64,000 nt of DNA from Raillietiella orientalis (GCA_036172245.1 JAYWIR010000021.1:434001-498000); one strand, 5' to 3'. Numbered from the stretch's first letter, positions 625 to 34,600 are shown. Program-made: numbers and translations. Notes: generated from the sequence alone by a model not told the origin.

Positions 625-1500
625 CGCGTGGGCCAGATGTCGCCCGCGGGCTGAGGTCTCCGTGCCACGTGGCACCTGGCGTCGCAGATTCGAATCCCGC
701 CGCCGGGGCGAGGATCGAACACACCAGAGTAATGGGGGTGCGTCGTGGGTTTCGAGTTCCCCCTCCTCCCGCAGGATGATGGTGGTTGGTCTCTGTTCGC
801 TCCAAGCACTGCGGCACTGGTGGAAGCAGCCGAAAGACTCTGCTGGCTGGTCGGATCCTCCGGGATCCTTCCGGGAATCAAGGAACCCTTTGGGGTTCCC
901 TAACTCTCAGTTGTGAAAGTGGGACCGTATTCCTCCACCGAACGGCGTGGGGCGGTGTCAAAGAACTGCATGAGCCACTGGGAGAACGATCCTTCCACTC
1001 CTGACGAACCAAAGAAAGGAGAAGCCCAGCTGATGGAAGCAGCAGTTCGTATCGCAGGGAGTTTCTAAGTCTCCCGAGGGGAGTCGGATGGAGGTCCGGA
1101 GGGAGCATCCACCTATCCGAAATTTCTACACCCCGAGGCAGTGAAAGGGAAGGCGAGGAGGACATTCCGGGCTGGAGTGATTTCTTCGGTTTCCGGTCCC
1201 GATCCTCCGCAAGAGGGAAGCAAGGAGAAGCAAAGTATTGAAAGAAGGAAATCAGCGGTGGCGCAGCGAACGTCAGTCAGCGTCTGGTGCTTTGGATGGG
1301 ACACACTGCACCACCAGAAGGAACCGTCGAAAGATCGGAGTTGCAGGGATTCCTGTGACTTGCCATCCCCCTTTCGGTTCGGAACACTCCTCTCTCCTCC
1401 GAATTCTTGTTCGCTCACCCACCCACCCGTGACAGCTGCTTGCAAGTGTTGCTGCCGTTCTACTGCAAAAGGGATAACACGACGGGAAGAGGAAGAACCT
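625..1500 (+). mobile_element. tRNA-headed structured repeat (SINE-like), copy A; ends approximate
   Basis: cgtggcacc..GATTCGAATCCC (B box 687-698), aggatcga, a second gtttcgagttcc, and core gcactggtggaag (814-826), shared with copies B and C. Confidence 0.7.
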
Positions 1501-4500
1501 TCATCCTGAGAGAAATGAGAGGAAGGGGGGAGGGGATGGCAAAATGAAAATCAAAACGTGAAAACCCCTAACTGCTGCCCGAGGCCGTCTTTTGAACTTT
1601 GGACGTGCCCGCCGTGCAGCGGGAAAAGGAAATTTCCTCTCCGAGTTTCCGCCTTGATTTTAAGCACAAGTGCGATGCAGCCGACATTCCTTCCATGTGG
1701 CGGAAGACGCGGATGGAAGGCCAACGGGAACCAAATAGTTCGCTTCCTTCGATAAACTGCTTACGTGCCTCCCCGTGTCCAGGAAAGAAGTGATCCTTGG
1801 TTTCCCCTTCTTGCTCCAATGGAGCACTGGAAGTTCGCGAATCTAAGTGTAAAAGCTCTTAAGCAGCCCTGAAGATCACATGAGAAGCCACGCACCTGCG
1901 TCGAAACGCTCTAAATGGAAACCAATCTGTGGAAATCTCTGAATTATAAGTAGCGGATACTCGCAGGTCAGCTTCGATCTCCGTGAGACCCCAGAGAGAA
2001 ATCTCTTATAAAATCGCTGAGATTCTTCGTCGGACAGAGCAAGGACCCAGGAAATTCACCCCAGTAGCCCCTGACAGAAGAACCGAAACGAAAGGAGAAA
2101 AACGTCAACCGTGGAGGTGCCTGAGAGATTCTGAGTGAAAGCAGTTCGTCCCTCGTTGGAAACACTCGCTGCAACACGTGGAGAAAACAAAGGTAGTCGG
2201 TTCTTTTCAGACGGAATTCTCATCCAGGGTTTGTTCCCTAGGGCTTGGAAGTGCGAGGGCTCCTCGCCACTTTTTCTTCTTCTTCCACTGAGCAAGTGAA
2301 TCTCATTCATCCCACCAGAAGCCAAGTCAAGTGCCAACTCAGATCCCATGTATCTGGAACTGCGGAATTTCAGAAGGCTTTCAGAGCACTCAGCAAGTGA
2401 GCTTCCTTTTCAGAAGGAAAACCAAACAGAAGCGGTGAAGGCGCGACAGACGGGAACAAGGAGACAAGTTATATACATACATACAAGTATTACATAGTCA
2501 GATTCTAAGCTGCTAAAAGTTTGTGTGAGAAACCCGGAACACTAGACAGACACGACCACCGATGGAGAACGACCCGGGAACGTAAAGTCTATGAATGATA
2601 TCTGGGCAGAGCATTGGAGATTCCCGAAAATCTGCTTGTTCCGCAGCTTTAAAATCTTTCCCGCCGAGCAGGAAGGACTTGTTCATCCGCGATTAATTAT
2701 TATGCTGCTTGGTAGTCCTTTTTGGTCGACAGAAAAGAACCTCGCTCTTTGTTGTCGAAGATGCCCAGCATCCAATGCGCAAACGAGAGTCTGCAACATT
2801 TCGACTTCCAGGAACTTGGGCGGGAAGAAGCTGAGCAAAAAAGCAAACGCTCCTAATGCGGAGCAACGTCCGTCGGAAGACGTAAGGCATTCGATCCTGC
2901 TGACGCATCCGTTCCATCCTTTGGATCATTTGCGAGAAGCACCCGCTCGGAGGCGAAGGGCGGAGCCACCGACTGTGGCTGTCGGAAAAGTCGAGAGTCG
3001 CGGGTGGGTAAAACAGAAGCACCTCAGTGCACGTGGAGTCATCGGGGATTACGGAATAGTGCAAGAAGTCCTTGTGCACGGGGAAAGTCATCCCGTTCTC
3101 CACCGACTTGCACTGGACAGAGTGAATCCTCCCTGTTTTCCGAGAATGCACTTCGGGATGGCGACCCATTGGACCCCATCCCGAAGGGAGGGTGCAAGGT
3201 TTGGAGGCTGCGCGGGACCATCGCTGCGGCCGCCCCCGACCCCGCGCTTCTTCGCATTAAAACGTGGCTGATCCGATGGAACCCTTTGAGTTCACTTGAA
3301 AATTAGGAGGTTCGGACCGATGCGTACACTTTGAAACAACAAAAAATTAGGTTTCGGTTCATAAGCTGCATCAAAGTTGCACGAGGGAGGGTGAGATGGG
3401 TTCTTGTTCCAGCACCGCAGTGCACTTTTGATGCATGCTGAAAATGCTTTGAGCACACGCCCACATGAGAAATAAAATCCACGAGTGAGGAGAGGATGCG
3501 TTCTTTTGGGTGTATCCCCGCTCTGTGTTTTTTTTACGAGTCCAAACGGCTGAGTTCACACCTTTCGCGACACTTCTCCATGCCCAACGTATCGTCTACA
3601 TTCCAGTTCTGTCGCTTCCCAACCGTGGAAACGTCGAGCAGAAAAGGCACTTTCTTCCGTGGCAGCAGCAGAAGTAGGCCGCGTGGTAAAGGGACATTCC
3701 GAGTCGCGACTTTTTGTCCACGGAGTTCTGCGCCGCCCCTCGTGGCTGCGGGGAAACTCCCTTGGAATATCGTTCGACCAAATCGGTTGCTGTTCTGCTC
3801 GTGTCCTCCGACAGCCGGCCACATGGGAATAGGAAGGAAGGGGGGGAGAGGAACGAAGCGTAGCACTCATCCGACCGAAGATGCGTCTTCTCCACTTGTC
3901 CGCAGGTCTTCTCCATTCGACGCAACGAAGAAAGGGCGCGCCCCCCCCCCCCGAGGCAAACAAATATAGAATGGCTCTTAATGGCTTTCGCCTTGGGTCC
4001 ACAAAGTCCACATCTACCAACTGCGGCAAGCCTTTCCTCCTCGAACCTCTCTGCTCCACGCTGAGATGGATTGTATGACCCATTCGAAGACATTCTCGGA
4101 ACTCGTCGTCGTTGTCCGAGCACTTTTCCGCGTTCTCGTTTGTTCCTTTACTCCAAACACGAGGCCAGCCTCGATCCCGCGCCTCCGTTCAATCAGGTGG
4201 AAAGGGCGAGGTCAGTTGTCTGCACCGATCCCTCACTTTTCACAAATACAGAAATCCACCACCTTTCGGTCACCGAGGCAAACTGACCGAAAACCGATCT
4301 TAAATGAGCAGCCACCGACATGCACCGCACCAATTTTTCCTTTTTTCCTTGCTTAATGCCAATAAATACTCGTGTCCTCCACGAATGTGAAATTTCCTGT
4401 GTTTATGAAATGACAAGGCATTCAGAAAATGCGCAATGGTTATGTGAAACACAGATAATGACGTGCCCCCCCTTCAACACCTATTGCACCACGAAACGTT

Positions 4501-5069: not shown

Positions 5070-5103
5070 CTGGAACAAAAAAAGGCTGGAAGCACATATG
5101 ACA

Positions 5104-7421
5104 TCAACTGCACAAAGGAAGAAAATAGGTTCTGGGAAACAAGTCTTTAGCTAAAAGAGTTAACTTGCAACCTTCTTCGGTATTCTCACTGTGAGACGCA
5201 AGCCACTCGAACATTTCATTCATTTCTGTGCTATGTGGAAGCAGGGCCAATGGGGGACACACCATGCTGGCAACAGATATGCACCACAACGTTGCCAAGC
5301 GAACTCCTGTATCATCGTGCTGACGAGTTTTATGACACACCATTAGCAATTCGTGGCATAAAGACACAATGGAAATATCACTTCCGGAATGAAGCACAAT
5401 CTGTCCAAGAGTTATTAACCACTGTTGCAATAATAATGCTTCTTCCCACAATAATTGATTAAAAGAACCTGTTGCGGACTGACCACCATAAATGAGTGGG
5501 TAAAAAAAGGAAGCTACAACAGAAACCCGAGAATCATTTAAAACGGGCGTTGCACCAGAGGCTCGTGAAGTGAAATATCGAGTTGTAAGCGGAAGACGTT
5601 CTTCCACCAGTTGTAAGGAAGGCTTGATGGCTTTTGCGGAACTCCTTGCACTAGGTTTGGAAGCGGTGGACAAATTACGAACTGCATTTTGAAATGTAAA
5701 GAGTACATCAAGATGCTGACTAACAGTACAGTGTGGACTGCAAAACTGATCTCCTAGGTAGCGAACTCCTACTCTTGGGCAGGAAATCAAACAAGCAGTC
5801 ATGCTACTGATGCGTTCATCATGAACAGGTACGCCAAATCGGTTATCAAGATGTAGCAGGATGCGTAGCGCTTCCACTGCAAGATCTTCATTCCCACACA
5901 GCTGCTCAAGAAGCATTTCTTCCATTGACTTCAAGCACATCACAAAATGTTCACTGTCCTCTGTGTCCATTAACTGCTCTAGTGCTTCTCGAATATGCAA
6001 GGCCTTGCAGACAACAGCTGATGGTTGATCATTACTGAGATCATAAGAAGGAAGATCATCATCATCATCACTGTCCAACTCTTGCCCTGGTGGTTTGTTT
6101 GGAACAACCTGCTCCTCATAAACGATTACTTTTTCTACATTCCGATTGCAGTCCCATTTTCCACTCAATAATGCAAGCAACTGCTGCGAAATAGCTTCAT
6201 CCCTTGGAACATACTCTAGAGGAGGACCATCAGGGCACAGTTGCTTCAAACAAATGCAAGCCGTGGTCATACCTAAGTCTTGCATGTTATCAAGAGTGCA
6301 ATCCAAATGTGATGGTACACTCTTAATCAACTGCTGAACGAGCTTACTACAGTCAAATGAATTCTCATGAGATGTTAGCAAGCCAACGGCAATAACTAAA
6401 GCCCATGTCAAGCTGAGATGCTGTTGAAAAGATGTATGCGCAATGGCATCACGATTACCCCATAAGGCCAAAATCTCCAAAAGGCATTCATAGACAGTCT
6501 GTAGAGATGGGTCACAAAGTTGTACATATTTAAAGATATTAATCAGTATGAGTGGTTCACAGTATTCACGCAGAAATACGAATTTCTGTGTTAAACATGA
6601 CAAAACACGTGGCTTCTGAAGCAAATTGCCTAACACAGAATACATACAATCTGGTTGAGAGATCTGTAAAAAGACACTTAAAAGTCTCTCTACTGAACGA
6701 TCTGGAATCAGTGAGAAAAGATGCTGGGTTACAGAACTATACAACGCATTTTTCTGACACTGAACAGTCATAGTAGGCATCATGGGTGACAAAATGTAGA
6801 AGGGATCATATAACAGCAGCAGTTTCCCTACTAATTGGGTCAATGATTGCACTGAATAGTCACAACTTCTCTCTGATCCTTCTGTGAGCAGTAACAACAC
6901 CTGTTGCAATGCTTGGGCTATAGAACTACAAAAAGCACGTGGTTGTAAACTATCTGGTATATCCCCACCAAAGCAATTGGCCAAACGATCAGGAAGACTG
7001 GCAATACCCAAAATGGAACTTGTACACTGCACTTCTTGAGGACCACATGCTGCCCAAAGAGGACTGACAAGATAGCAAGGGTGCAGCATCTGCTTGAGCA
7101 AAGTAAGCAGTTGCATCTTGCGCTCCAAATTTAGGCCACCATGTTCTAGGATATCCATTAATTCTCCAATGGTCTCAATGACACCACCACAAGAGCAGAA
7201 ATGCACCAGACAAGAGAGATGTGTCGGAATATCAACATGCATAAAAAGTTGACGAATCAGAGGAATCCAGACCTCTTGTTTGAAACTTAAAGAGATAAAA
7301 GATGGTTGGTCAACACCTGCAAACTGTTGTTCATTCATGGGTCCAGGAAGCCAATCTGATAACTCAATGAGGTCGGACTGCACACTGTGCCCTCTGAGTA
7401 TAGCATTTTGCAAATGGGCCA
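5104..7421 (-). CDS. tel2: Tel2/TELO2 domain encoded by one 2.3-kb exon (TTT co-chaperone subunit)
   Basis: 788-aa ORF with LPDRLAN, the acidic ELDSDDDDDLPSYDLSND motif, HIREALEQL and a C-terminal DDTGVRLATL, all typical of TELO2. Confidence 0.92.
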
Positions 7422-10397
7422 CTACAAGGCCGTCACTCCCACCAGAATACAGAAATAAAAGAACACTCACCTGTTGAAGTAAAAGGTGCAGCAGATGACA
7501 TCAACTGAGAATTGTTCGCAATTGAATTAGATTCCGTTAGTAATGACTGGAAAAAAAATAAAACAACTACCAAGTTCTGAAGACACTTACAGAAGACACT
7601 GAATGAGGGCTTTGTCCTTGTGATACAGGCCATGAAGGTAAGACTTCTTCCAAACAATTTTGCTTAGAAGAGAATGATACAGCTGGAGGCAAATTCTGAG
7701 ATATGTCAAGCAAAGTATCAGTGTGCCTAACAGAAGCCATAATAGTATAAAATCAGTCTTGAACAATATCTGCTTACTGAGTAACAACAGGAAAGGCACT
7801 TGCAAAGTCTCCAAAATCATTAGTAGAATTAGCATGCAAGTCACCAAATTTGCATGTTTCCTCCAGAGAACATAGTAAATCGCCAGTTGGTGGATCCTTA
7901 ACTTTCTGAGTTCCCTCAGTGATAGGAGAACTCTGCAATATTACTTCCAGGTTAGAAAGAAACTTTGCATTTCAAACTTACTCTTAAATGGGAGAATGTC
8001 ATTTGTTTATTGCCAGTCTTACTGCTATCCTCATCGTGGTACTCCTTTTTCTTAACATCATGTTCCACTTCCTGATTACAGCTGGAATGGCAAACAAATG
8101 TGAGCCATTGCACCAGCATCCCACTGATAGTATTCACCCTTCACTTTTACTTCTCCAACTAGGGATAACATTATCTTTCCAATGACATACTGAGCCATCC
8201 CAACTGTTGAATTGATCAGCTGAGCATCACACTTCATAGAATAGTTTCACAAAAAGCACAACTCACAGTAGCCAGAACCCAACTGATCATTGGAAATCCC
8301 TACAAATTTTTCTCTATTCCTTTTGGCTTTTTTTCTTTCCTCCCTCAGCCTATCATCGTCCTGTATAAACACAATAAGCTCCTTCACTTTGTGTCTGGAA
8401 GAAATATTTCCACTTGACAGCCAAATGGACTGAACTTGTTACCTAACATTAACACCTAAATCTTTTCCCTGATCATCTAAATATGTGAAACGTTCAAGTG
8501 AACGAAGATCATAAATGTGCTCTTGTGCACAACTTACTACACGTTCTGACCCATTACGAAGAAGGTAGGAAAGCACCAAAAGTGACTAAAAATGAATTTA
8601 AGCATTTTTTTCAAAACTCCCAGACAATTGTATAAAAGATTACCTTATAAGTGCGTCTCCAATTTTTTTTCTCATGAAGCATTCTTTTCCACAACATTCC
8701 CATTACTTCAGGGAAATGTTCAAATGTATATGTTGCTTGGGCTAATTCTTGCATAATAGCACCAGTGGGTCCCCAGCTTTCATCATTGGTTGCTTCACGA
8801 ACCTTAGCCTCAAGTTCACTGTAATTCATTACCACATTGGTACTGAAAAAAAATAAAAAGAAAATAAAACCCTCTGAGAAAACTGCGGGGAAAACAAAAT
8901 CTGCAAATTGTTTCATATTACAAGAATATGGAACAATCTTCTGATTGTGGACATACTTTTCAATGAGTATTGATGACTAGATTCTAGATGAAAAAACCTC
9001 GTTACTGATCATGCCAGTTTAAAATATTAAACACTCGTTTTTAACTGTCCAACTAAAAACACCAGAAAACTCGGAAACCTAAAAGAAATGAAGCATCTAT
9101 GTGTGATAAACAAATGTTTATGTTCATGCCTTCTTGTTTAACAATGCCCCTTTACTTTACATCCACATTCCATGATGACCCGTAATGATTCATTCACAGC
9201 AAATGATACATCATCATAGCATCTTGAAATGGAATTTCAATTTTTATTTTCTACTTTGACAACAAATACAGAAATGCATCACATATAAATACCTAGAACC
9301 CATCTAACGAACACAGATTGAACAAAATCAAACACATTGTGACCCTAAGTAGAATAGTTGACCAAAAATATGTATGCTTCAAAAATAAATCCTCGTAAAT
9401 GAAAACACTGAAAAGGTAACTCTTTTTTTTTTTTTTTTTTTTAATATTATCTTTTAAATAGAAACAGAATTCGGGCAAACTCAACAGAAACTTGGGTCTT
9501 AAAATGATGTATTTGACAAAATGCTTTAGAAATGTGAGTTTCCATGAATACCTTTTGAACTTTTATGAGTTACTTTAGCCTTCAAAGATTTCTGTCTTTC
9601 CAAATTTCTTATTTTTTGTAAACTTACATTTATACCATTTTCTCTAAGGTACCACTAAAATGCAACACAATGAATCCAGCAAAACTATGCAAAAAATGAA
9701 CCTTTTATTCAAAGAATTATCCAAAAACGGGTCAAAAATATTTTAACAGTAAATACCAGCACACCTGATAAGAAATACATCTCCTAGATTTGACTGAAAG
9801 TGAAAGCAAAAAAATTCGTTAAACCCTGACTCGTGCAAACAGAAAATTCTCAATCATTGCAAGCCACTAACGCACATTATACCGTTAGGTGTATAACATA
9901 AGACTTTGATGTTTGCAAAACTTATAAAGTGATGCAACAAAAAAAGACACTTGGAAAACAGTAGCGAATTCCTATCTTATTCTATGACTTAATTGTACTT
10001 TCTTCAAACAATACCTTAATTACATTTCGCAAAGGCCACGATACAGAAACGGTCGTGAAATCTGAATCTGGAAAAACAGTTGGGTATGGGTTTTTTCGAT
10101 CCCAAAAATAAGCTACCACATGATGAGGTGTAAAATCGCTAGTCATTTTTTCATCCCAAAGTCCCCAATTAGCAATACATGTAATCTACTATGAAAACAA
10201 AATTATCACTTTATATAAGCCTCTTTCAACAGAGTAATCACCCTGTGCCTTTAAGAACTCAATTCTGTATTGGTCAAACAAATTTGAAACAATTAATGCA
10301 TGCACATTCATCGCCAAAAATAAAATTAACGGATTCGATGCATAGCCTCATGTGAAAAAACTCACACTTTATCTGCCAAATCTCTAATTTTCCACAT
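5104..10397 (-). CDS. lqfR: EpsinR (CLINT1/lqfR)-Tel2 fusion isoform; exons 10397-10366, 8842-8644, 8585-8443, 8394-8267, 8219-8138, 8081-7982, 7932-7778, 7726-7591, 7546-7471, 7421-5104
   Basis: ENTH N-terminus MWKIRDLADKV|TNVVMNYSELEAKVREATNDESWGPTG...SLLVLSYLLRNGSERVV and a DFGDF AP-1-binding motif. All introns are GT-AG with consistent phases. A 49-nt intron (7470-7422) joins the epsin part in frame to the long Tel2 ORF. Confidence 0.88.
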
Positions 10398-23250: not shown

Positions 23251-24519
23251 AGGTCAGGTCATGAGCAAGGATAAAGGAGTGATCGCTCCAATGAGGGTTT
23301 GGCCCTTTTCAGCTTTCAACAGGATGGACGATTCGCTTGAGAGTTTTGCCTTCTCACGCTGCCAACCAGAAAACTGGCAGCGAGGTCAAGTTCCATAGTG
23401 GGGCACCCGACCACGGGCGAGTTCACCGCCCAGCCCCGAACGACGAGATGCACCGGACGAGAGCTCTTCGCACTATTCTTCATCCGTTCTGGATGCCCCC
23501 CTCGACGGCTTGCCTCTCCCTCCGGGAAGCTCCCTTCAGAGAAACTGGGAAGCGCACCTCAGGGGCTCTCCCCGGAGCAGGAATTTCAGGAGCGGATCCT
23601 TTCCGGGTTCCCTTCGCAGAAGAAGCAAGGAGCGACTCCCACAAACCGGGAGGTCCCACCGGAGAGAATGAGGGCGAGGATTCCCTTACAAGCGTAAGAG
23701 GAACGGACGACACCCTCCTCCTCTGGAGTTTTCCTGGATTCATAGGGTGGTTTCCTCCCGGGACAGCACCTCTAACTTGGGGAACAGTTGCACTCACCCT
23801 CGGGTGACGTGGACAGCGTCCCCCCTAAGGTGGAGGCGACGGGTTCTCCAGGACTCCTTGAGAACCAAACAAGAAAACTTGAAAGAAAAAAAAAAAAAGG
23901 CCGGAAGGAAAGCAGCGGAACCCGAGGAGCCCGAGGGGATTTCGATCATCGACGTCATGCTGAACGCTCAACCTTCCCGGGAGCCTCTTAGAGGACCGGA
24001 AAAGCCTCGCGGCGCTGTCGGAACCCTGGAGACGCAGGAGTTCGACCCTGGAGTCGAAGAGATGGGATCCAGCAGCTGCAGCTCCCTTCCCCCGGCTCGA
24101 TCAGGCATTCCCGACTCCCGTCCGGTGACCGCCGGAAAGGGAGCGGCCTTGACTTTCGAGTTGCACGGTGAGGGGCGCAGAGTCTCCGACAAAGAAGCTC
24201 CTCGATTGCTGACTGCTGCACCGGACCGCGCCTGGACTGCCTGTTGCGTACAAGCGCAGCATGCACGCTTTCCGTTCCCGAATGACCCCCTCGCCGCGTT
24301 CCAGACAACCGAGAAGAGCGGCCGCGTGGCAGCGGCCGCTCTCCTCTCCACGAGGAAGCCCAGGGCGTTTCCCTCGTGGGAGGACGCGTCTGCCCGGGCC
24401 AACAACTCACGCAGTCCAGTCAACCCATTGGCTACTTCTTCGTCTGCAAGGGCACTTTTCTCTCTCCCTCCTATCGATTATTTTCCCAGTTCATGATCCG
24501 AGGGTCCCCCCCCCCCCCT

Positions 24520-25330
24520 CTATTTGTGTGTGTGCTTTTTTACGGTCAAGACAGCGACCAGCGTTACGATGTGACGGAGCATCCACAGATGAAACCGACA
24601 CACCCCATCTCGGCAGAGAAAATCGCGTCCACAGGCCTCCCCCATCCGCTTCCTGAGAAGATCCACCCACCTTGATCTCGGCAGCAGCAGGCCGGGGCCG
24701 ACTTCGAAATTTGCAAGCGCCGTTTTCCCCCCGCCGGAGCAAAGCCGCAAGGAAGGAATGAGATCTTTCGCTTCATTGCAAGCCACGAAATGCGTTTCCA
24801 TGGCTACTTCGGCCATCAGAGCATCGGCGGTTGCTACATCCAGATCCATCCATTTATCCTGCAGGCGACCAACCGCCCACGTTTTTTCCAAGACTCCTTT
24901 TTATTTTGAAGTGTTCGTTGAAAATTGAAATTCGCATCAGAAATCGCTCCAAGCCTTCCGGCAGTGGAAGGACCCTCCACAATAAGCACACCATACACTA
25001 AGTGTAATTTGTTTTGCTCCCATGCGTGCAAAAACCTTGTTCTTTCTTGATGACCTTTACGTTCGTGCAGGGCGCGTCGCGATGACATCAGAGACAAACT
25101 CGAGGTAAACCCGTTGAGTGGAAGCTGTGCGGCACAGCAAATCTCGTCTGCTGTTTGTCACATGCCATCTGCCTGCATGTCGGCCTCCGAACATCCCGTG
25201 CCTTCTGCGTCTTTCCCGGTCCAGGCTGCTCGATCCGAGTCGACCTTCGCGGGGTCCGCCCTGAGCTCGGCGAAACCGTTCCAGACGCAGGAGGCACGGG
25301 GAAGAAGATCTTCCTCATTGATTCCATCCG
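24520..25330 (-). mobile_element. Decayed Merlin/IS1595-like transposase relic
   Basis: RRPTCRQM..TRF, KKRGRLV..GWIWM (cf. YNRGR.V..WVFG), DVATADALMAEV, KDLIPS. Confidence 0.45.
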
Positions 25331-25499
25331 TGTGACCTCCTCCTCCTCCTCGCTCGTATCGGAGCATCCGCTCCGATGTCGCCCGCCTCCGTGTCTTGCG
25401 CAAGAGGAGACTGTTGGTCACTTTAGATCGCTGCACGAAGGGCGTCCAACCCTATAGAGAGATATTTCGTTTCTGTAAATCCCTGCGGAAATTCCTTCT

Positions 25500-26030
25500 T
25501 CATTCTCGCTGGTGCGAGAAATGACTTCATTTCCGTTTTGCCGCCTCTCCGTTTTCAGACGGGAAAAGCTCATAGCAGTTTCTGGAGGCGGCTCCGCGTA
25601 CGACAGATTTCGCCAGCTGCTGGGCAATGAATCAAATCCCAGGAACTTGGAAATTATTAGGGAGCATTTCGAACCTGCTGGTATTCTGGTTGATCGATAT
25701 ATCCCTCGAAATAATTGCACCTCACCACAACTCCAAGGAGACTGCGCGCGCAGCTTCCTTTACTGGCATCAATCTTTAAAAATGCCCCTTTCTCCGTTGT
25801 GCTCATCTGCCTTGTCCATCCGTCGCAGATGGGACTTTAGCCAGCAACTCACCACTTGGTCCAATTTTCCACCCTTCCGAGAGAGCAGTCTTCAACACCG
25901 TTTTTCTTTTTTCCTCAGAAAGTCCAAAGTGTACATTATCCGGAGTATACGCACTAGCAGATCAGCTGAGCTTCAAGAGTACAGAATGTCCTTACGAAAA
26001 CTCAGCGGCGCTCTTCTTTCTATAGAGTGA
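25500..26030 (+). mobile_element. Decayed Merlin/IS1595-like transposase relic (C-terminal half)
   Basis: RNLEIIREHFEPAGILVD (cf. TLLPIIREHI.PG.II.SD). Confidence 0.45.
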
Positions 26031-27378
26031 GCAGTTGTGTGCTATTCATTATCTGACGAGTACCTACGCGCCACATGGGGGGGGGGGCTCACCCCCGACT
26101 TTGCCGTGTTTCCACTCTTGCTTTGGCGTACTCGTCATTGCCGTTCCCCATCTCTGTATCCATACATCTGTTTTCGCAATGTATTGATGATGTGATGTCC
26201 CTTGCGTGAGATTCTTCATGAAGTTCATCGGCTGCTCCGGAAGTGAACCACATTCGGTTTCCAGAACTGAATCGGTCTCGGCAGTCTTGGACCGCTTCGT
26301 AGTCTTCTTTCTCAAGAGGCATCTTTCAGGAGGAATCCGTTTTCAATTAATTAGAGGGCTGTTTCAGTATTTCCCTGTGAGTGAATTGGCGGTTGCATCA
26401 CTGGACGGAGACGGGATGAAGATCACGTGACTTCATTAGCAGCGTCGCTCTGCTGGCATTGCAATAACGGCTTGTTACGGAATGCAGTCAAAACAACCAC
26501 GCCCTACCACTACTTAATGCGAAGCAGGAATAAGAAATGACGATCCAAGTGATTCTTTGCCATCGGATGGATTCCTTCTTCCGCTATTCCCTCTTCCGGA
26601 TCTTCTGCCATCTAGAATGGGAGAGGCGTTGTCTGCTGATCGAACTACGAGTCCCCTCCCAGCTTACTCTTTGGCTCTCCACCTGCCTGGAAGCTATAGG
26701 ATAGCAACGGAATTGGAGATCTTTCGCTTGTGATGCCTCCCATAGTGGTAACCACCCATCTAAAAAGATTGGCATATGGAGAAAAGAAAACGGAAGTGGA
26801 GAAATTGATCGTATGAAAGTGGAATCAAACGGTCGTCCGTGGACACGGCCAACTTTTCCCAGTTACTCGGAAGAAGTTTCCCGCATTCTACAAATCCTTA
26901 TTTCTTTTTTGATTGCCATCCAAGACGGATGCTGAATCCTGAATCACAAATCCTTCCGTGATTTGAATTGGACCCATTTTTTCCGAGTTGCCACTGGCCA
27001 TCGAAGTATGCAGTGAGGTGGGATGTTCAGAGATCCTCAAAACAACTCACCAAGGTTCTCACCGAGGTTCTAAAAAGCAACAGCAGCAACAAAAAAGAAA
27101 CGCACTATTTCTGCAAGCAGGGATTTGGACATGTGCTTTATTTCATCAAAAATCTTCAAGAAAAAAAAAAATCTATCATGAGAGTTTTACAAAGTTCATC
27201 AGCAGACATTTTTCGAATAGATATATATATATATATGTATATATATTTGGAGGTGGATGTGTCACATTTAGACCATAGTAGTGAGAAACCAGTGGAGAAC
27301 GGTGGAGAAAATTATCTGTGACTCAGGAAATCAACAACAGCAGCAACAACAGCAACAACAAAAAAAAAAACACGACCA

Positions 27379-28104
27379 TTAGATGGAAAAATGCAGTGCA
27401 CTGCTCAAGCAAGGTCTTCCACAATGGGAACGTAATTTATTGCGTAGATTTTCACAGCGTGTGATTGCGAGAACGAATGATGACACAGCAAATAAAGCAA
27501 ACGGTATGACGAAAGAAAACAGAACCAGGTTTTTCGCCTTCACAAGATCAAGATCTGTTATGACAAGCTGAGGATTGATCTGGCTGTAATAACACGGGAA
27601 CACCGATCCTTCGTTTTTTATCTGACTATATTTCTTTGACCACATGTTACAGTTAAATGAAGAGGTAGGATAAATACAACCTTTGACGTTGACCAGGAGC
27701 CTTGCCGATTCGACATCCCACGCGTAAGAAGGATCTTGCAAGGCGGTGGGATGCGCACTTTGATTCGTAACGTTTATGTGATAATTGACAAGAATGTGCA
27801 GGCACTCTATGATGTCTTTGGTGCACCCTTCTCTGCAAGAGCTCCACGAGCAGTTTGACATACCTTTGAAGTGCAATATTTGCATCACCCTGCACGTGAC
27901 AGGAACGTCCACGAATTCCGCAGAGATCACAGCGTGAGCAGGATCTATAACAAAGGGCACAAGAAACACAAATGCACTTATCGAAAAGATGGCACACAGC
28001 AAAAAGAACGAGACCACGTAGAATTTCAGCCAAGAGTAAAAATTCGGACAAATGGGCTCGTCTTCGTTGCAGGAAATGTCCACGTCTTCCTCTTCTGCCG
28101 ACAT
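27379..28104 (-). CDS. tipE: TipE-family voltage-gated sodium channel auxiliary subunit (single coding exon; start may lie upstream, ORF opens at 28278)
   Basis: TM1 AFVFLVPFVIDPA, NCSWSSCREGCTKD, LLVNVKGC, FPCYYSQ and a second TM segment near the C-terminus. Confidence 0.88.
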   Translation of the reverse strand: MSAEEEDVDISCNEDEPICPNFYSWLKFYVVSFFLLCAIFSISAFVFLVPFVIDPAHAVISAEFVDVPVTCRVMQILHFKGMSNCSWSSCREGCTKDIIECLHILVNYHINVTNQSAHPTALQDPSYAWDVESARLLVNVKGCIYPTSSFNCNMWSKKYSQIKNEGSVFPCYYSQINPQLVITDLDLVKAKNLVLFSFVIPFALFAVSSFVLAITRCENLRNKLRSHCGRPCLSSALHFSI

Positions 28105-28899
28105 GGGATTGTCTCGCGGCGAAGGAACGAGTTCCTGAAAGCTTCTGGAGCACAACTCGGCAAAGGATACTGGCGGCGATTGCCAGAGCATCTCCTGGAA
28201 GTGAACGGCACGCAATCTCGCTACCTTTCTCTTGCCAAGTGCAATCAATTTCATGGCACCGCGACGTGAGACAGGCACACGAGGGAAAAGAGGAACCGTG
28301 GAGGGAATCGTTTGCGCTTCCCGTGAGGACGATGAGGATGGGAGGGGGAGGGGAGAGGAGAAGGACTACGACGGCGGCGATGCGATGCGGGAAATGTTCC
28401 GCTTCCCTTCGCAGAGAAATACCCGGGAGCGAAAGACGGTCAACGTGCGGTCGCCACGATCACCGAGTTCACCGCATCCTGATCTATCGTGTGTTGTCTA
28501 CGGCCCGGTGTTCCTCATCAGAGAGGGAGCCGTGATCGCCTGAAACGCGATCACTTGAGCACGTGCACTCTGCTTGGATACGATCGAACGGACTTCAACA
28601 CGCGCTGCTTGAAGCCAATCCCATCCCGATTTTCTAATTAAAAGGGGAGAGGAGGGGTCCCCCTTGAGGGCATCGATTTTCTTCTTCTTCTTCGATCGGA
28701 CGAGCAGCACAAAAGTTGGAAAGCACACAACCATCGCGGTCACGGCAGCTGAGAAATGATTTTTAAGGCAGGGCGGGGGTTCTCCCGCACCGGGAGCTGC
28801 CCAACATCGGGAACGCCTGCCATCAGAAGACGCTTCTGATGACGGAAACCGCTGTAAGAAAATTTGGAGCGATTCAGTAACGGCGGGCGTCTTATTCTC

Positions 28900-29750
28900 A
28901 GCTCCGGAAGCACCTCTGCGAGGCAAGGAGGAAGGGGAGGGGCGAAGAAAAACACCCTCCCCCTGCATAGGGAACCGGGATGCCACCTACGGAAAAAGGC
29001 CCGATCGATCTGGTTTCCCGGGGAGCCGCTCCGTGGAAAGCACGCACGTCGCCTGGAATGCTTGAAGGGGGCTCTCCGCACGCGCAGTAAGGAGGCAGAA
29101 GGAACGCTCCGAAGCGTGTCGCACTCGCACGTGAGCGGCAGGTTTCTCCCCCGGTGGCTGCGCGAATGCAAGAGCCTAACAGGCCCCCGGATCGATGGGC
29201 CTCCGGAAGGAGAAACACCCTGTTCCCGGCTCCTCCCGCGAGCGGATGCCACGGCGCTTTTCGCAGCCTTCGCATCCCGAGTTTACGCATCTCGCATTTA
29301 GACGCTGGCTGCTCTCGCGTGATCCGGTCGTTCTTGCAGAAAAGATAGGGAAGGGGTGCAAAAGGAGCGCCGCCCGGACCGAACACGGAACCTCCATCCT
29401 TCGCCGTCCTTGATCTCGAGACGACTTCGTGGACGGCGAAGACAGATCTCGCGCAACCACCATCACCGAACTGCAAGAGATGGGAGGGGCGAGACGGACA
29501 GACCACCGCGTGGATGAGGAGGAAAGGCGTGCGCCAACACTTCGTGGCCCTCGTCCTGCTGCACTCTGCTAGAATCCAGGCTGGCCGTAAAGCGCAAAGA
29601 AACACTCTGCTACGATGACGCGGACGCGACCATCCATCGCCGCCATCGCTGCCGAGGCCAGCCGAGAGAGGGCCAGCCGCAGCAGGTCACGGGAGCGGTG
29701 TACTCCTCCGCAAGTGCAGCGGCGAAGAATGCACCGGGTCATCACGGTTC
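28900..29750 (+). mobile_element. Decayed Merlin/IS1595-like transposase relic (GC-rich)
   Basis: CHLRKKARSIWF, RWLREC, PRIDGP..RADATALF, RRWLL, QHFV in order. Confidence 0.4.
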
Positions 29751-30094
29751 TGCCGACACGGCTCGCGTTTCGAACTGGAAATTCCTCGGCCGAATTGGTG
29801 GAATGAGGTGGGATGGGTTGAGAGGGCGTGGCGCCACCTCCCGCCCCGGGCAGGCGGCGCGAGGTGGGTCGTCTCGAAAGCAACGCACGGGCAGGTGCGG
29901 GCAGCGAAGGAGCAAACGGATAAGACTTCCTGCCACCTTAGGGATGTTTGTGTCTCTCTTTGTATGTCTCCTCCTCCTTTCTCCCCTCTCCTCCCCACCT
30001 TGAGGGTACCCCTTCCCCGAATCCACCCACTTGTTCCACGTTCCGTGCCCGGAGCTTCCTCGGCCGTCGACTTCCTTCCCCTTCCTTCCTCCAT

Positions 30095-30960
30095 GCCCGC
30101 GTCGGAGGCCACTTGGTTGCGGTCTCCGCGCGTGGCACCAGGCGCCGAGGGTTCGAATCCCGCCCGGGGAAGGATCGACGCTGAGAAACGGGTGGGTTCG
30201 GGTTCCTCCCACATGATGACGATGGTTAGCCTCCACTCGGGTGCGGCAGCACTGGTGGAAGCCGGATGCCCATGATGAGGGGCTGGGATCGGGAGTCGAC
30301 CCTCCGGGTTCTTCCAGGAAACAATGAAAGAGTGGAACCTTCCCCCGGTTGTGCTAAGGAGCGAGGACCCCCTTCGGGGAAGGACCCTCCGTCTCATAGC
30401 ATGGAGCCGGTGTGGCACCTCTTCATAGTGCAAAGAAGCGCTTTGCTCCATTCGGGGAGCCCCGCCCCTTTGAGAAAATTCGGAGGTGTCCCTTCGGGGC
30501 CGTCTTCAGAGGAGGAGGAAACAGGGAGTGGTTCCTTTTCGGGGTCCCTCCGAAGACAACCAGGGCGGGGGATTCCCTTCGGGGACCCCTCCCCAGGCTT
30601 GAGAGGGACGGACTCCCTTCCCCGGAGCCCTTCCTGGATTCGTAAGGCACCCCCTATCTTCAAGATAGGGGGTATCCCGGGAGGCTCGCCGACCCGCACC
30701 TAAAGGTCCCCCCCCCCTCAGGTGCGGGTCGCCGGAGTCGGTCCCGCCGCCACACCTGCCTTGGGTGGCTGTAGCGTCCTCCTCGTACTGGTTGCAGGAG
30801 GCTGGAGCCAGCGCTCCTGCCCTCCAGAACACCGCGCCCGTGACCTGCCGCGGCGGACCTCCCTCGGCTGGCCCCCGGAGCGATGACAATGATGGATGGC
30901 TGCAACAACATCATCGTCACGGGGAGACGGCAACGACGACGACGCGGAGGGAGGTCACCG
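30095..30960 (+). mobile_element. tRNA-headed structured repeat (SINE-like), copy B; ends approximate
   Basis: A-box-like ggaggccacttggttgcgg, GGTTCGAATCCC (30150-30161), aggatcga, core gcactggtggaag (30249-30261), many hairpins, short (acg)n near the end. Confidence 0.75.
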
Positions 30961-33799
30961 AGATGACAGCCTCCGCCTACATGGGGCGAGATGGCTGCGA
31001 AGTGGAAGTGAAGGATAGTGGTGGCCGGTGTCTAGCACCGGTTTTGAAACGAAGGGGTGGCGGACACAGGTGACCCCTGTCCCCTACCCTCTATTTAATT
31101 TTGCTTTTTTTAAAAAAACCAAAAATTGCCCCTTTCGTTCCGAACCTTCCCCGGCTTTTATTTATTTATTTATCGTGGTTCGGATGGAACGACGCCAAAG
31201 GCCCCTCCTCCCACGCTTCCTTCGTGTTTTGTTTTGTTTTATCGTCTCCTCCGTCCCGCTCCCAGCTTCCCAGATGTCCGCGAACCCTCCCCCTGAGACT
31301 TCTTTCGTCTTCAGTTGAGAACCAGAACGCGTTCCCGACCGGCGCCCTTGCTTTTGTGGAACAAACGCCCCCCGGGCGTGACCGGGTGGGGAACGCGTCC
31401 CTCCGACCGCATCTCTCTGTCGGCTCGGTTTCCAGCTCCTCCCGACAGCTGGCCGTCGCAACGAAGGGTGAGCGGGACTCCCCTCTCGCCGGCAACTCCA
31501 TCTCATCCATCCCTGGTTCGCTCCCAAAGGACGTTGCCCTTTGACGTCAACTCCTGCCCCTTCGTCCCGGCCGCGGTGACGAGACCCTGAGACCCCTCCG
31601 CCGGCCCCTCCTCCGATGTGCCTCCTCGCTTCGTGAAAGCGCAGCGGAGAGTCTCCCAGTCCTCTCTGCATTCCTCCTCCCGGATCTCGGATCGTTCCTG
31701 CTGCCGCCGACCCCGGACTCTCGGAGTTCCCGTTTTCCCACTCCTCGTCCCTTTCGGACGCTTCCTCTTCCTTAGCCACTTCTGACCGCACCCTTCCTGC
31801 CGTCCTTACAGCCGGCCAGGGGTCCCTTCCCGTCGGGTCTGCTCCTCCTCCCTGCAAGTCCTGGTTCCCAGGAGCCCATCTGCCTCTCTCTCGGGCAGCG
31901 TTCGGTCCCCGCGCGGCGCGTGGATCCCCTGAGGCTGTGAGTCCCACGCGATAGCGCATCGAAAATCCTCTCCGAGACCTCAGGGTGCTACTCGCCGACG
32001 GGGAGGACACCTCGTCGCGCCCGCGTCCTGGATGGGACATGCAGCCAGATCCCGGCGAAGCGGACAGCACCTCCCGGAACGTTTTTCTTGGCCCTTGTCG
32101 ATCTCACGAGCGCTTCACAAGCGGTCCCTCACGAGCGTCGCAGCGCCTCGCCTGAAGGCGGCGACGGCTGCACAGAAGGGACGGCAACAATCCGGGACGT
32201 TTTCCTGGAAGCGCACGTCTGGACCCAGTCCTTCGGTGAAGCGCCTCCGGGAGAAACGGGCAGCCCGGAAAGACGGGGACCTCCTCCCGGACATCTCGGG
32301 AATAGCACGGCCTCCCGATGCTTTCAGAACGCCTTCCCCATCTGGGGACGAACGCTGACAACGGAGGAGAGCAGCTGAACTTTCGGGGTCGTCCAGGGGT
32401 GGTCAAGCGGAGACTTTTTCTGAGCCCACTGGAAGAACGCCATCCGGCACAGCACGTCTTCCGTAGGTCCGCAGGGTTCTTCGCAAGCACCCCTCGCCGG
32501 CCCGTGCAGTCGCCGCCGCCCCCGTTCGCGTATTGGCGAGAGGTCCAGCCAGGCCCCAGTCTGGGGATGCAGGCCGACACGGGAAGCTACGCCAGACGAG
32601 GCGGCAAGCCTAGGACATCATCCGGCCGCCCCTGCACCCTGCCGCGACGTCCTCGAGAGGCAGCGCCTGGAGAATCGCGACACCTCAAGAAACACGTGGA
32701 GGGCCTGGGAAATCCGGTCGGCCCGGGAGCATTTCCAGAAGAGGCGTCCATGCGCCAGCTGCCTCGCTCGGTGCTTTAAACTCTGGGGTTCTCCCGTGGC
32801 GAAGGGGGCGAAGAAGGGCTCATTCCCGCGCCCCGCCCACCACCCAGGGAGGGCTCGAGGTCTCCTCGGGAAACGAAAGGAAGAGATAAAGCGCGTCTCC
32901 CTCAGCACCAGATGGGACGTCCTGCACGGAGACACCCCTGTGGTGCGGACGCTGCGGGCGTCGAAGACACAGGAAGGGAAGCTGTGCGCGCCAGTTTCGT
33001 CGGCCCTATCTTTTCCACCGGGGGCGGCATGACATGCGTGACAGAGGAGTACCCGGACGCGCCAGCAACCTAGCGCGCCCCGACACCTTCTGCCCCCGGG
33101 CCGTGGAGGACCGTTCAGCCCTTCGGCGCCTCCCGAGCTTGGCGCGCATCCCTCTGCGCAAGGACACTAGCAAAAATCCTCCGAGACGGGTTCCGTTTGA
33201 AACGCGCCCCCCCCCGCGCGTCTAGCAAACGGCAAATCTTAGAACGACCTGCATGAAAACGAGAGGACCGGCCCGCCGGAGGAGACGCTGAGGGAATTCG
33301 GCCCACGTGCGCCCGTCGCGACCCGGCTGACCACCCTATCGAAAGCACTGCGAAACGCAGGAGGGTCGCTGGAAAAATCAGGCCGGAAGTCGGGAAGCAA
33401 GTCGGCAGGTCCAGCGGCTGGAAGATCCCGGCCGGCAGTGCAGACCAGGGAGCGAGCCCGAAACCCCTGGAGCTCGCTCCATGTGCTGGGGAGAACACCG
33501 CGAGAGATCTGTAGGAGAGGGGAGGGGAGCCGCGAATGCGCGCATATGAGGGTCGAGAAGGCTCCATGGGCGATGAGCGATCTCGTCGTTGGGCCTTCTG
33601 CACTCTCCGCTCTAAAGGTCGAGGAGCGTGCAGAAGGCACGAGTCGTGCTGCCGGGCGAGGCGGGAGACCCCCGCGGCTCGTCTCGAGGGGCTACTCTCA
33701 AAAGTGGGGTTCCCGCTGACCGATCCACGGGGTCGCATCTCGAAATTGCGCGCGCTCAGCTGGCCGCCAAGTGGAGGGGGGGGGGGGAGGGGAAGCAAA

Positions 33800-34600
33800 A
33801 GGGTGTCGGTGGATGAAGCGAAGAGTGGAAAACATCTCGCTGGAAACGAGAGATGTTCGTAGATCACCAAGTCCAGAGGGGAGCGTCAAGCATCCTGCCT
33901 GGGGCACGCTCCTTGAAGTGGTCAGCAAAGCACTTGAGAACCGCTCGCCTGCCACCTCACGGAGCTCTCTGGCACCGTTCAACCCACCCAGGGTGTGCGT
34001 TTGGCCCTTCAAGATGGAGGGTATCCCGGGAGGGGACCCAGGAATGCTCTGGAGGAGGAGGGAAGTCGTCTCTTCCTCTTAGGTATGGAAAGGAACCCTC
34101 GCCCTCGTTCTCTACGGAGAGACCCGCGGAGGGGGCCGCTCCTGGCATTTCTTTCCCGGAAGAAATCCGCAAGGGGACTGCTCACTGTTTCTTCTCTCCT
34201 CGGAAGAGAACCCCGAAGAGGCGCCTCCGAATTTCTCCGAGAGGTCGTTCCTCGAAGGGAGTAGCGCGCTTCTTGCACTCTGGACAGGCATCAACCAGCT
34301 TTATGTTATGCGGCTCTCCTTGGGCAACCAGAGGGGGGGAGAGCGAACCACGGAGAGCTTCTGGATTCCAAAGGGCCAACTTCCAATGTCAGGGACCTGT
34401 TCCGAATGGGGCATCCGTCTTCCACCAATGCTGCCGCACCCAAATAAAGGCCAACCAGCGTCATCTCGCGGGGCAACTCGAACCACGACGCATCCCCCAT
34501 TTCTCTGGCACGGTCGATCCTTCACCAGGCGGTGGGATTCGAACACCTGGTACCACGCGCGGTGGGCCTCCGCAGCCGCACGGCCGCCCTCGCGGGACAC
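33800..34600 (-). mobile_element. tRNA-headed structured repeat (SINE-like), copy C; ends approximate
   Basis: Reverse strand has GTTCGAATCCC (34544-34534) and gcattggtggaag (34431-34419). Its body gtgcaagaagcgc...aaattcggagg...cttcgggg...gaaacag aligns with copy B 30428-30525. Confidence 0.75.

What the first reader, a model, noticed from the sequence alone, without database searches (positions are those of the whole stretch)
625..34600. Three-copy tRNA-headed element with a long hairpin-rich body that seems structurally conserved across diverged copies
Seen: copies at ~625-1500 (+), ~30095-30960 (+) and ~33800-34600 (-) share, in order, cgtgg(c/t)acc, a B box (TTCGAATCCC), aggatcga, a second B-box-like gttcg(a/g)gtt, gca(c/t)tggtggaag, a ggag(t/c)g..ctccg block and ggtggc..agcg. 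The bodies differ greatly in sequence and length, yet a helix closes at the equivalent late position in each: agttgcagg/cctgtgact with G-U pairs (1339-1360), gcaggag..ctcctgc (30794-30820), ggagcgt/acgctcc (33880-33912). Known: tRNA-derived heads with internal Pol III promoters define SINEs, which are usually shorter. Inference: an ~0.85 kb non-coding mobile RNA under selection for structure, possibly an undescribed SINE or structured-RNA family; three copies in 35 kb suggests high genome copy number.
Basis: partly seen in the sequence, partly recalled or inferred. Interest (0 to 1): 0.8.

Follow-up and report, generated by a model that had tools for sequence, protein, structure and literature searches.

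The report
Decayed SINE-like repeat family, not structured RNA
The three look-alike stretches are real, old, non-coding copies of one repeat of about 0.85 kb in an arthropod genome, most likely relics of a SINE-like mobile element, and nothing shows that their hairpins are conserved or special.

Summary
The repeat is real. Copies A (622-1440 +), B (30095-30920 +) and C (about 33773-34598 -) share an ordered motif chain: 3 matches against 0 in 100 shuffles. nhmmer E-values run from 1e-14 to 1e-41. I found two more pieces: D (23505-23865 +), a body without a head that ends near an A13 run, and E (29606-29759 -), a tail-only fragment.

Homology is uneven. The first ~180 nt are 72-87% identical in every pair. 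B, C and D share about 590 nt. A matches B and C only over ~270 nt plus a short tail motif.

It is not coding: indels break the frame and no Pfam family hits. It is not a TipE exon.

The "tRNA head" is only a B-box-like motif plus a weak cloverleaf. ARAGORN finds nothing at default settings, and the best tRNA-clan hit in Rfam scores 11.2 bits against a cut-off of 47.

The structure claim fails. A and C fold no better than shuffles (z +0.59 and -0.06). Only B does (z -5.1), and unrelated GC-rich neighbours reach z -3.4. Covariation is negligible.

Best reading (about 0.5): relics of a SINE-like retroposon with a conserved 5' module. Copy number, target-site duplications and a partner LINE could not be tested. 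Interest is low.

The parts
622..1440 (+). Copy A, full length by head and tail motifs; its middle (about 900-1330) does not align to the other copies
   Evidence: nhmmer against B (E 3.5e-15) and C (E 2e-14) over about 623-930. Head profile hit 627-833. Tail motifs GTTGCAGG at 1340 and CCCGTGAC at 1426 are shared with B. Tail profile hit 1341-1469, but A was one of the three sequences that built the profile.
622..835 (+). Conserved 5' module of A: weak tRNA-like cloverleaf 622-709 with a B-box-like GATTCGAATCC at 687-697, followed by about 120 nt of conserved sequence
1541..1564 (+). A-rich degenerate tract (A4 TG A4 TC A4 CGTG A4) downstream of A; possible retroposon tail. The first T4 run on this strand is at 1590.
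   Evidence: Read; T-runs. Assignment to the element is inference.
23505..23865 (+). Copy D: body only, corresponding to family positions about 350-700; no head
   Evidence: nhmmer against C (E 3.4e-27) and B (E 1.2e-10). No head similarity upstream with blastn or nhmmer at E<=10.
23886..23898 (+). A13 run about 20 nt after the end of D's homology; possible poly(A) tail
   Evidence: There are 13 A-runs of at least 10 on this strand in 64 kb, so the chance of one starting within 40 nt is about 0.8% per copy.
29606..29759 (-). Fragment E: tail-only piece, inverted relative to B and 335 nt upstream of B's head
   Evidence: Self-BLAST 30826-30917 against 29704-29612, 78.5% over 93 nt, E 9e-14. Inverted repeats I1 and I2. 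Tail profile.
30095..30920 (+). Copy B, full length: head, body and tail
   Evidence: Perfect B-box-like GGTTCGAATCC at 30150-30160.
30650..30734 (+). Near-perfect palindromes found only in B (30650-30672; arms 30687-30706 / 30715-30734); they account for much of B's low folding energy
   Evidence: Read; the repeat finder I4. At the homologous places C and D have only weak stems or none (read).
33773..34598 (-). Copy C, full length; the 3' boundary is uncertain (clear homology to B ends near 34007-33987, to D near 33930)
   Evidence: B-box-like TGTTCGAATCC at 34535-34545.

Best explanation
These are old, inactive copies of a non-autonomous, non-coding interspersed repeat of about 0.85-0.95 kb, most likely a SINE-like retroposon.

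Inferred mechanism. An active source copy would be transcribed by RNA polymerase III from an internal promoter in a degenerate, class-II-like tRNA-derived head. The B box is present; an A box is not evident. A partner LINE's reverse transcriptase would then copy the RNA back into DNA, which sometimes stops early and leaves 5'-truncated copies.

The first ~180 nt (the tRNA-like part plus about 100-120 nt after it) were conserved among source copies, as happens with the conserved central domains of SINE superfamilies, while bodies and tails differ between subfamilies. A carries a different body from B, C and D.

Shown here: the repeat family, its discrete 5' boundary, its module-wise conservation, the truncated members, and the lack of coding capacity. 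Inferred only: Pol III transcription, tRNA origin, LINE dependence, and mobility itself.
For: (1) Discrete unit. Similarity among A, B and C starts within a few nt of the same point (622, 30095, 34598), with no similarity upstream. The only repeats in the window at E<=1e-6 are these pieces, 5 of 5 pairs.

(2) The unit starts where a weak cloverleaf starts. ARAGORN at 80% thresholds (+), 30090-30171 (+) and 34523-34598 (-). A B-box-like 11-mer sits about 55-66 nt from the boundary in all 3 copies.

(3) Truncated members. D lacks the head and ends about 20 nt before an A13 run. E is tail-only. A is followed by an A-rich tract.

(4) Module-wise conservation. Positions 60-180 are 82-87% identical in B-C, 73-85% in B-A and 75-82% in C-A. 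The B-C body is 68-73%, and A's body sits at the shuffle baseline of about 52-58%. This pattern is known for SINE families that share a head and central domain (passages read in PMC4824008 and PMC5804259).

(5) Not coding. Indels of 1, 2, 5 and 7 nt separate the copies. No Pfam family at E<=0.001 hit any ORF overlapping a copy among the 146 ORFs of at least 100 aa scanned. ORF all-against-all gave only 38-47 aa matches between copies.

(6) The copies lie in both orientations (+, +, -, +, -).
Against: No target-site duplication beyond chance for any of 5 boundary pairs tested; 23 to 195 of 200 shuffles scored as well.

No reverse transcriptase or LINE in the window, so no partner can be named.

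tRNA origin is not demonstrated. ARAGORN at default thresholds gave 0 calls. No Rfam family reached its gathering score. The best tRNA-clan alignment is tRNA-Sec at 11.2 bits against a cut-off of 47, E 9.7, in a 121-nt search. Relaxed ARAGORN gives 25 calls in the window, 21 of them outside the heads, and assigns a different anticodon in each copy. C lacks the 5' T-stem strand.

At 0.82-0.95 kb the unit is longer than the 75-662 nt range of SINE consensus sequences reported in SINEBase (PMC3531059, passages read).

B has a T4 run at element position 442, which would stop Pol III.

All five pieces lie in GC-rich blocks within 35 kb and none in the other 29 kb, which local duplication would also produce.

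Genome copy number is unknown.
Confidence: 0.5

Rival explanations
1. A dispersed repeat of another or unknown class, or plain local (segmental or inverted) duplications of non-coding GC-rich DNA, with no RNA intermediate and no function. The better-kept 5' part would reflect uneven mutation or gene conversion between neighbouring copies.
For: All 5 pieces lie within 35 kb and only in GC-rich blocks. No target-site duplications. No LINE nearby. E sits as an inverted partial copy only 335 nt from B, which looks like a local rearrangement. tRNA identity is unproven.
Against: The three full copies share the same 5' boundary, with no flank similarity. Random segmental duplications would not do that. 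A and B share head and tail but not the middle, which fits module exchange between subfamilies better than simple duplication. D ends next to an A13 run.
Confidence: 0.25
2. B and C are the long terminal inverted repeats of one decayed DNA transposon of about 4.5 kb (30095-34598). A, D and E would be remnants of other copies.
For: B (+) and C (-) face each other with their heads at the outer ends, and they share about 590 nt at about 72% identity.
Against: No transposase-like or any other significant Pfam match in 43 of 43 ORFs of at least 60 aa between them, even at E<=1; the best was 0.027 and unrelated. The outer flanks show no duplication (read). A has no inverted partner; only 3 heads exist in the window. 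Two neighbouring copies fall in this orientation by chance 1 time in 4.
Confidence: 0.07
3. A small family of functional non-coding RNA genes, or of DNA elements bound by TFIIIC, kept by selection. The conserved ~180-nt 5' module would be the functional core.
For: The 5' module is 72-87% identical in all three pairs while the rest has drifted further. In the head alignment 92.5% of cells pair, against 90.2 +/- 0.8 in shuffles (3 of 500 reach it), and 4 pairs have double changes against 2.0 +/- 0.9 (24 of 500). One 4-bp hairpin (alignment A3 columns 178-181 with 189-192) keeps pairing through two double changes in A. C-UUCG-G loops favour the sense strand, 5 to 1.
Against: Folding z-scores on the sense strand: A head +0.42, C head -0.10, A middle -0.45, C body +1.19, D body -0.43. 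Only B is low (-2.14 and -2.81), and unrelated GC-rich control segments reach -3.38, -1.76 and -1.54. RNAalifold covariation terms are +1.02 (body) and -0.64 (head) kcal/mol. The tested structure was derived from the same three sequences, so the comparison is circular. There is no Rfam match. D and E are truncated pieces, as expected of junk copies. Three or four sequences give almost no statistical power.
Confidence: 0.08
4. The copies are exons or untranslated regions of paralogous protein-coding genes, for example the TipE/Teh family, whose one recognisable exon lies at 27382-28365 (-).
For: A TipE-family exon lies between D and B. Long open frames cross the copies on the antisense strand.
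Against: 66 TipE relatives searched by tblastn hit only 27460-28029 and nothing in the copies. Frames are broken between copies by indels that are not multiples of three. No Pfam hits. The long open frames are explained by TpA depletion (observed/expected 0.23-0.42) in GC-rich DNA.
Confidence: 0.03

Closest known systems
tRNA-derived SINEs with a conserved central domain (CORE, V, Nin/Deu, Inv, Pln and Meta superfamilies; several are known in arthropods)
   Same: Modular build: a short Pol III-type head with a B-box-like motif at the very 5' end, then about 100-120 nt conserved between otherwise divergent copies, then a variable body and tail. It is non-coding, has 5'-truncated members and has A-rich ends on two pieces. 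The architecture and the conservation of central domains are described in passages read in PMC3531059, PMC4824008 and PMC5804259.
   Different: The length is 0.82-0.95 kb, against 75-662 nt for SINEBase consensus sequences and 179-388 nt for the 16 families listed in PMC5804259. tRNA identity is not demonstrable. Copy number, target-site duplications and a partner LINE are not shown.
tRNA genes and tRNA pseudogenes
   Same: A T-loop/B-box 11-mer, and a cloverleaf that can be drawn from the 5' boundary at relaxed thresholds in all three copies.
   Different: No call at default thresholds. No hit to the Rfam tRNA model RF00005 even at E<=10. The acceptor and T stems are imperfect, the anticodons are inconsistent, and about 750 nt of extra sequence are shared as part of the unit.
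Structured non-coding RNA families in Rfam 15
   Same: GC-rich with many local hairpins. B folds well below its shuffles (z -5.1).
   Different: No family at gathering score in the 64 kb, and only chance-level hits at E 0.1-10 on the copies. The low folding energy is not shared by A, C or D and is matched by unrelated neighbouring DNA.

Membership tests
SINE (SINEBase criteria, PMC3531059) | Short (<1 kb), interspersed, non-tandem genomic repeat | tested here: met
   Units of about 0.82-0.95 kb, dispersed in both orientations, no tandem array. Only one 64-kb window was seen.
SINE (SINEBase criteria, PMC3531059) | [quoted passage not shown] | not testable with these tools
   No genome is held for this window. 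No sequencing run was listed. Pattern scans of metagenome and prokaryote collections gave 0 hits.
SINE (SINEBase criteria, PMC3531059) | [quoted passage not shown] | tested here: inconclusive
   The species' own tRNAs are not available; the window has 0 tRNA genes. Proxies: no tRNA, 5S or SRP model at E<=5-10 on A, B or C. Best tRNA-clan hit is tRNA-Sec, 11.2 bits against a cut-off of 47. ARAGORN calls appear only at 80% thresholds, where the window gives 25 calls.
SINE (SINEBase criteria, PMC3531059) | Internal Pol III promoter (A and B boxes). SINEBase counts this only as an indication, not as proof. | tested here: inconclusive
   B-box-like 11-mer: 11 of 11 in B, 10 of 11 in A and C. No convincing A box by eye. 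Transcription could not be tested.
SINE / LINE-mobilised retroposon | Target-site duplications flanking the copies | tested here: not met
   The best flank matches are 5-8 nt, and 23-195 of 200 shuffles do as well. Copies this diverged may have lost them, so this is weak evidence.
SINE / LINE-mobilised retroposon | A-rich or simple-repeat 3' tail and 5'-truncated copies | tested here: inconclusive
   D ends near an A13 run. A is followed by an A-rich tract. B and C have no such tail. D and E are 5'-truncated.
SINE / LINE-mobilised retroposon | A partner LINE sharing the 3' end | not testable with these tools
   No reverse-transcriptase domain in 146 ORFs of at least 100 aa or in the 43 ORFs between B and C. 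The rest of the genome is not available.
SINE superfamilies with named central domains (CORE, V, Nin/Deu, Inv, Pln, Meta) | Body contains the named conserved domain | not tested
   The consensus sequences appear only in figures, supplements or Repbase, none of which the tools hold. A motif search of the paper library gave only unrelated primer hits.
   A z +0.59, C z -0.06, B z -5.13. By segment, 5 of 7 family segments lie between -0.45 and +1.19, while controls reach -3.38.
   Covariation terms are +1.02 (body: 81 pairs, 16 with a double change but many broken) and -0.64 (head: 49 pairs, 4 with a double change). Only 3 sequences per alignment.
TipE/Teh protein-coding exons | Translated similarity to TipE-family proteins | tested here: not met
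   tblastn with 66 relatives hits only 27460-28029. Pfam TipE matches only ORF 27379-28254.
DNA transposon with long terminal inverted repeats (B/C pair) | A transposase remnant between the inverted ends, and flanking duplications | tested here: not met
   0 of 43 ORFs had a relevant Pfam match at E<=1. The outer flanks are unrelated.

The most novel reading that the evidence does not exclude
The conserved ~180-nt 5' module (a tRNA-like minihelix with a B box, plus about 100-120 nt kept at 72-87% identity in all copies) is a functional unit. It would be either the core of an unusually long (0.8-0.95 kb) Pol III-transcribed RNA family, or a TFIIIC-binding DNA element, kept in the unmethylated GC-rich intergenic blocks of a poorly sampled pancrustacean lineage.
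Probability: 0.07. Interest if true: 0.55.

Novelty: new member of a known kind. Interest (0 to 1): 0.2.

Why it matters
The value is modest. The finding adds an undescribed repeat family to a pancrustacean lineage that has no close relative in the protein collections: the best identities were TipE 47%, TELO2 24% and glycogen synthase 77%. If genome-wide work confirms it as a SINE, its 0.82-0.95 kb unit would lie above the 75-662 nt range tabulated in SINEBase.

The main practical lesson is a caution. In GC-rich, TpA-poor DNA, hairpins and long open frames arise everywhere. Hairpins that seem to be shared between diverged repeats need shuffles and neighbouring-DNA controls before they are read as a conserved structure.

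Tried and rejected
Whole genome: none is held for this window, so there is no genome-wide copy count.

Sequencing runs: none was listed for 25500-35400. No RNA holder was listed and read laying was not used. This says nothing about expression.

Earlier scan notes: none for this genome. The sequence look-up returned one unrelated algal note sharing 2 of 180 words. The word look-up returned nothing.

External DNA: two family patterns gave 0 hits in metagenome contigs. The head pattern gave 0 hits in prokaryote genome contigs. These collections hold little or no arthropod DNA, so this says little.

Literature: motif strings gave only unrelated primer hits. Searches for 'tRNA-derived SINE' with 'crustacean', and for SINEBase, arthropod and central domain, gave general SINE papers but nothing matching this element. 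Supplements and figures holding SINE consensus sequences were not seen.

Coding readings were rejected. A short open frame starts at the conserved GATGA(C/T)G motif in all three copies, but it stops or shifts differently in each, and B against C shows 3 synonymous and 5 non-synonymous codon differences (read).

Tandem substructure of the body: none was found.

More copies: head, body and tail profiles found no further members at E<=10, apart from one weak internal echo in B, 30288-30375, E 0.013. A B-box-like site at 36389 is unrelated.

Not run: I did not search the protein representative library with spurious ORFs from the copies. No close relative of this species is present there, to judge, and a conserved core of about 40 aa could not reach significance.

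A first version of the segment-wise shuffle script timed out. It was rewritten and rerun with 40 shuffles.
Full report
OBSERVATION. The three copies are real. None of 100 dinucleotide shuffles of the window gave a match. The fifth motif, CA(C/T)TGGTGGAAG, follows at 815, 30250 and 34430(-). Single-sequence nhmmer gives A~B E 3.5e-15, A~C E 2e-14 and B~C E 3.5e-41. In a sensitive self-BLAST of the whole window, all 5 non-self pairs of at least 50 nt at E<=1e-6 belong to this family.

ANATOMY.
- D (23505-23865 +) matches only the body of C (E 3.4e-27) and of B (E 1.2e-10). It has no head upstream. Its homology ends about 20 nt before an A13 run at 23886-23898.
- E (29606-29759 -) is an inverted copy of B's tail only: 93 nt, 78.5% identity, E 9e-14.

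Similarity among A, B and C begins within a few bases of 622, 30095 and 34598, and nothing is shared upstream. The unit therefore has a discrete 5' end.

Conservation is uneven.
- B against C, identity per 60 nt: 68, 82, 87, 45, 50, 73, 72, 68, then decay.
- B against A: 78, 85, 73, then about 52.
- C against A: 72, 82, 75, then about 52-60.
- Shuffled baselines average 52-58%, with 95th percentiles of 65-68%.

So copy A shares only the first ~200-270 nt with the others. It also shares a short co-linear tail motif set with B: GTTGCAGG at 1340 and 30791, and CCCGTGAC at 1426 and 30837. The helix of C cannot be placed in the same alignment columns as those of A and B.

NOT CODING. Copies differ by indels of 1, 2, 5 and 7 nt inside the best-conserved part. 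The long antisense open frames of B and C share no significant protein similarity, best E 0.16. ORF all-against-all shows only 38-47 aa matches between copies. Among the 146 ORFs of at least 100 aa scanned with Pfam, none overlapping a copy had a hit.

The neighbouring TipE-family exon (27382-28365 -, Pfam TipE E 1.7e-49) is the only TipE-like sequence in the window: tblastn with 66 relatives hits 27460-28029 only. The excess of long open frames is explained by strong TpA depletion in the GC-rich blocks, observed/expected 0.23-0.42.

THE 'tRNA HEAD'. ARAGORN at default thresholds finds no tRNA in the window, and Rfam finds nothing at gathering scores. Permissive Rfam searches of B, C and A (E<=5, 5 and 10) list no tRNA, 5S or SRP model.

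A 121-nt search of B's head gives tRNA-Sec at 11.2 bits against a gathering score of 47, E 9.7. That alignment covers a D arm, a long variable arm and the T arm, but has no acceptor stem and almost no anticodon arm.

At 80% of ARAGORN's thresholds a cloverleaf is called at the homologous place in all three copies, starting at the repeat's 5' boundary: 622-709, 30090-30171 and 34523-34598. At that setting, however, the window yields 25 calls, 21 of them elsewhere, and the three calls carry different anticodons.

The B-box-like 11-mer is perfect in B and 10 of 11 in A and C. C lacks the 7 nt that would form the 5' strand of the T stem. What is conserved is therefore the sequence motif, not the arm. 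Verdict: a tRNA-derived head is plausible, possibly from a class II tRNA, but it is not demonstrated.

STRUCTURE. Whole copies compared with 20 dinucleotide shuffles:
- B: z -5.13 on the sense strand and -3.68 on the antisense strand.
- A: z +0.59, with 14 of 20 shuffles folding as well.
- C: z -0.06, with 9 of 20 folding as well.

By segment on the sense strand, with 40 shuffles: A head +0.42, B head -2.14, C head -0.10, A middle -0.45, B body -2.81, C body +1.19, D body -0.43. Five unrelated GC-rich segments of the same window gave -0.91, -3.38, -1.76, -1.54 and +0.13. The family is therefore no more structured than its surroundings. Much of B's stability comes from near-perfect palindromes that only B carries (30650-30672; 30687-30706 with 30715-30734).

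RNAalifold gives covariation terms of +1.02 kcal/mol for the B/C/D body (81 pairs) and -0.64 for the A/B/C head (49 pairs). On the head alignment 92.5% of cells pair, against 90.2 +/- 0.8 in shuffles. Four pairs show double changes, against 2.0 +/- 0.9 (24 of 500 shuffles reach that). This is a faint hint at best. It is also circular, because the structure was derived from the same three sequences. The predicted long-range helices follow trivially from sequence: CACCAG is complementary to CTGGTG, and TTCGAA is its own reverse complement.

CONTEXT. The window is from a pancrustacean arthropod with no close relative in the protein collection. Best identities were TipE 47%, TELO2 24% and a glycogen synthase exon at 71-77% to insects, malacostracans and a springtail.

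Recognisable genes are AT-rich and CpG-depleted, with observed/expected CpG of 0.27-0.5. The family lies only in GC-rich (52-65%), CpG-normal, TpA-poor non-coding blocks.

No whole genome, no sequencing runs, no earlier notes and no matches in metagenome or prokaryote collections were available. Copy number and homologues in other species therefore remain unknown.

MECHANISM AND RIVALS. The best reading (about 0.5) is a set of relics of a SINE-like, non-autonomous retroposon. It would have a Pol III-type tRNA-related head at the exact 5' end, a conserved ~100-120 nt domain behind it, and variable bodies and tails between subfamilies. The 5'-truncated members D and E and the A-rich ends on two pieces fit this.

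The uneven conservation fits selection acting on source copies rather than on the inserted copies. This is the known pattern for SINE superfamilies with conserved central domains (passages read in PMC4824008 and PMC5804259).

Evidence against:
- No target-site duplication beyond chance.
- No LINE or reverse transcriptase in the window.
- The unit is longer than the 75-662 nt range of SINEBase consensus sequences (PMC3531059, passages read).
- B has a T4 run at element position 442.
- All pieces cluster within 35 kb.

Rivals:
- Another repeat class, or local duplication without function: 0.25.
- B and C as the inverted ends of a decayed DNA transposon: 0.07. None of the 43 ORFs between them has a relevant Pfam match even at E<=1.
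- A functional RNA or TFIIIC-site family: 0.08.
- Coding exons: 0.03.

COMPARISON AND NOVELTY. By SINEBase's formal criteria (PMC3531059, passages read), criterion (i), a repeat under 1 kb that is interspersed, is met within this window. Criterion (ii), at least 100 copies, cannot be tested. Criterion (iii), at least 60% identity to a tRNA over at least 60 nt, is inconclusive. I therefore call the element SINE-like and do not file it as a SINE. It matches no Rfam family. If confirmed, it would be a new and unusually long member of a known kind of element. Nothing indicates a new kind of system.

VERDICT. The repeat is real. The structural-conservation claim is not supported, and the tRNA head is weakly indicated. 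Interest is low (0.2).

Noticed in passing
window 27382-28365 (-): A single open frame of 291 aa (ATG at 28254) encodes a TipE-family sodium-channel auxiliary subunit (Pfam TipE E 1.7e-49). The best relatives are only 42-47% identical (shrimps, amphipods, beetles). It is the only TipE-like exon in the window.
   Followed up: partly
window 5104-7338 (-), 8614-8976 (-), 41744-42118 (+), 58292-58759 (+), 59103-61885 (-): Other genes in the window: a single-exon TELO2-like protein of 744 aa (best database identity 24%), an ENTH-domain exon, C2H2 zinc fingers, a HEAT-repeat exon, and three glycogen synthase exons.
   Followed up: partly
whole window; GC-rich blocks 1-4000, 18000-26000 and 28000-36000: Compositional mosaic. 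Recognisable genes sit in AT-rich (34-43% GC), CpG-depleted DNA (observed/expected 0.27-0.5), which suggests gene-body methylation. Large non-coding blocks are 52-65% GC with CpG near expectation and strong TpA depletion (0.31-0.42). What the 18-36 kb GC-rich block consists of, beyond the repeat copies and TipE, is unexplained.
   Followed up: partly
window 18000-36500: About ten open frames of at least 240 aa on both strands have no Pfam match. My rough estimate of about one expected from base composition alone was not computed with a tool. TpA depletion probably explains the excess, but unannotated orphan genes are not excluded.
   Followed up: partly
window 29612-29704 (-) with 30826-30917 (+): Fragment E and the tail of B form a 93-nt, 78% inverted repeat that brackets the whole of copy B plus 390 nt upstream. 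No other copy has such a bracket.
   Followed up: partly
window 30650-30672 and 30687-30734: Two near-perfect palindromes inside copy B only. C and D have at most weak stems at the homologous places. Their origin is unknown (for example local hairpin-templated repair).
   Followed up: no
window 52350-52387, 56891-56910, 38931-38949, 9423-9442: Very long homopolymer runs (T38, A20, A19, T20) in the AT-rich parts. In all there are 13 A-runs and 12 T-runs of at least 10 nt.
   Followed up: no
window 24300-24640 and 28700-29040: GC-rich non-coding segments outside the repeat family fold well below their dinucleotide shuffles (z -3.38 and -1.76 on the + strand; -2.18 and -2.69 on the - strand). Whether this reflects other decayed palindromic repeats was not examined.
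   Followed up: no
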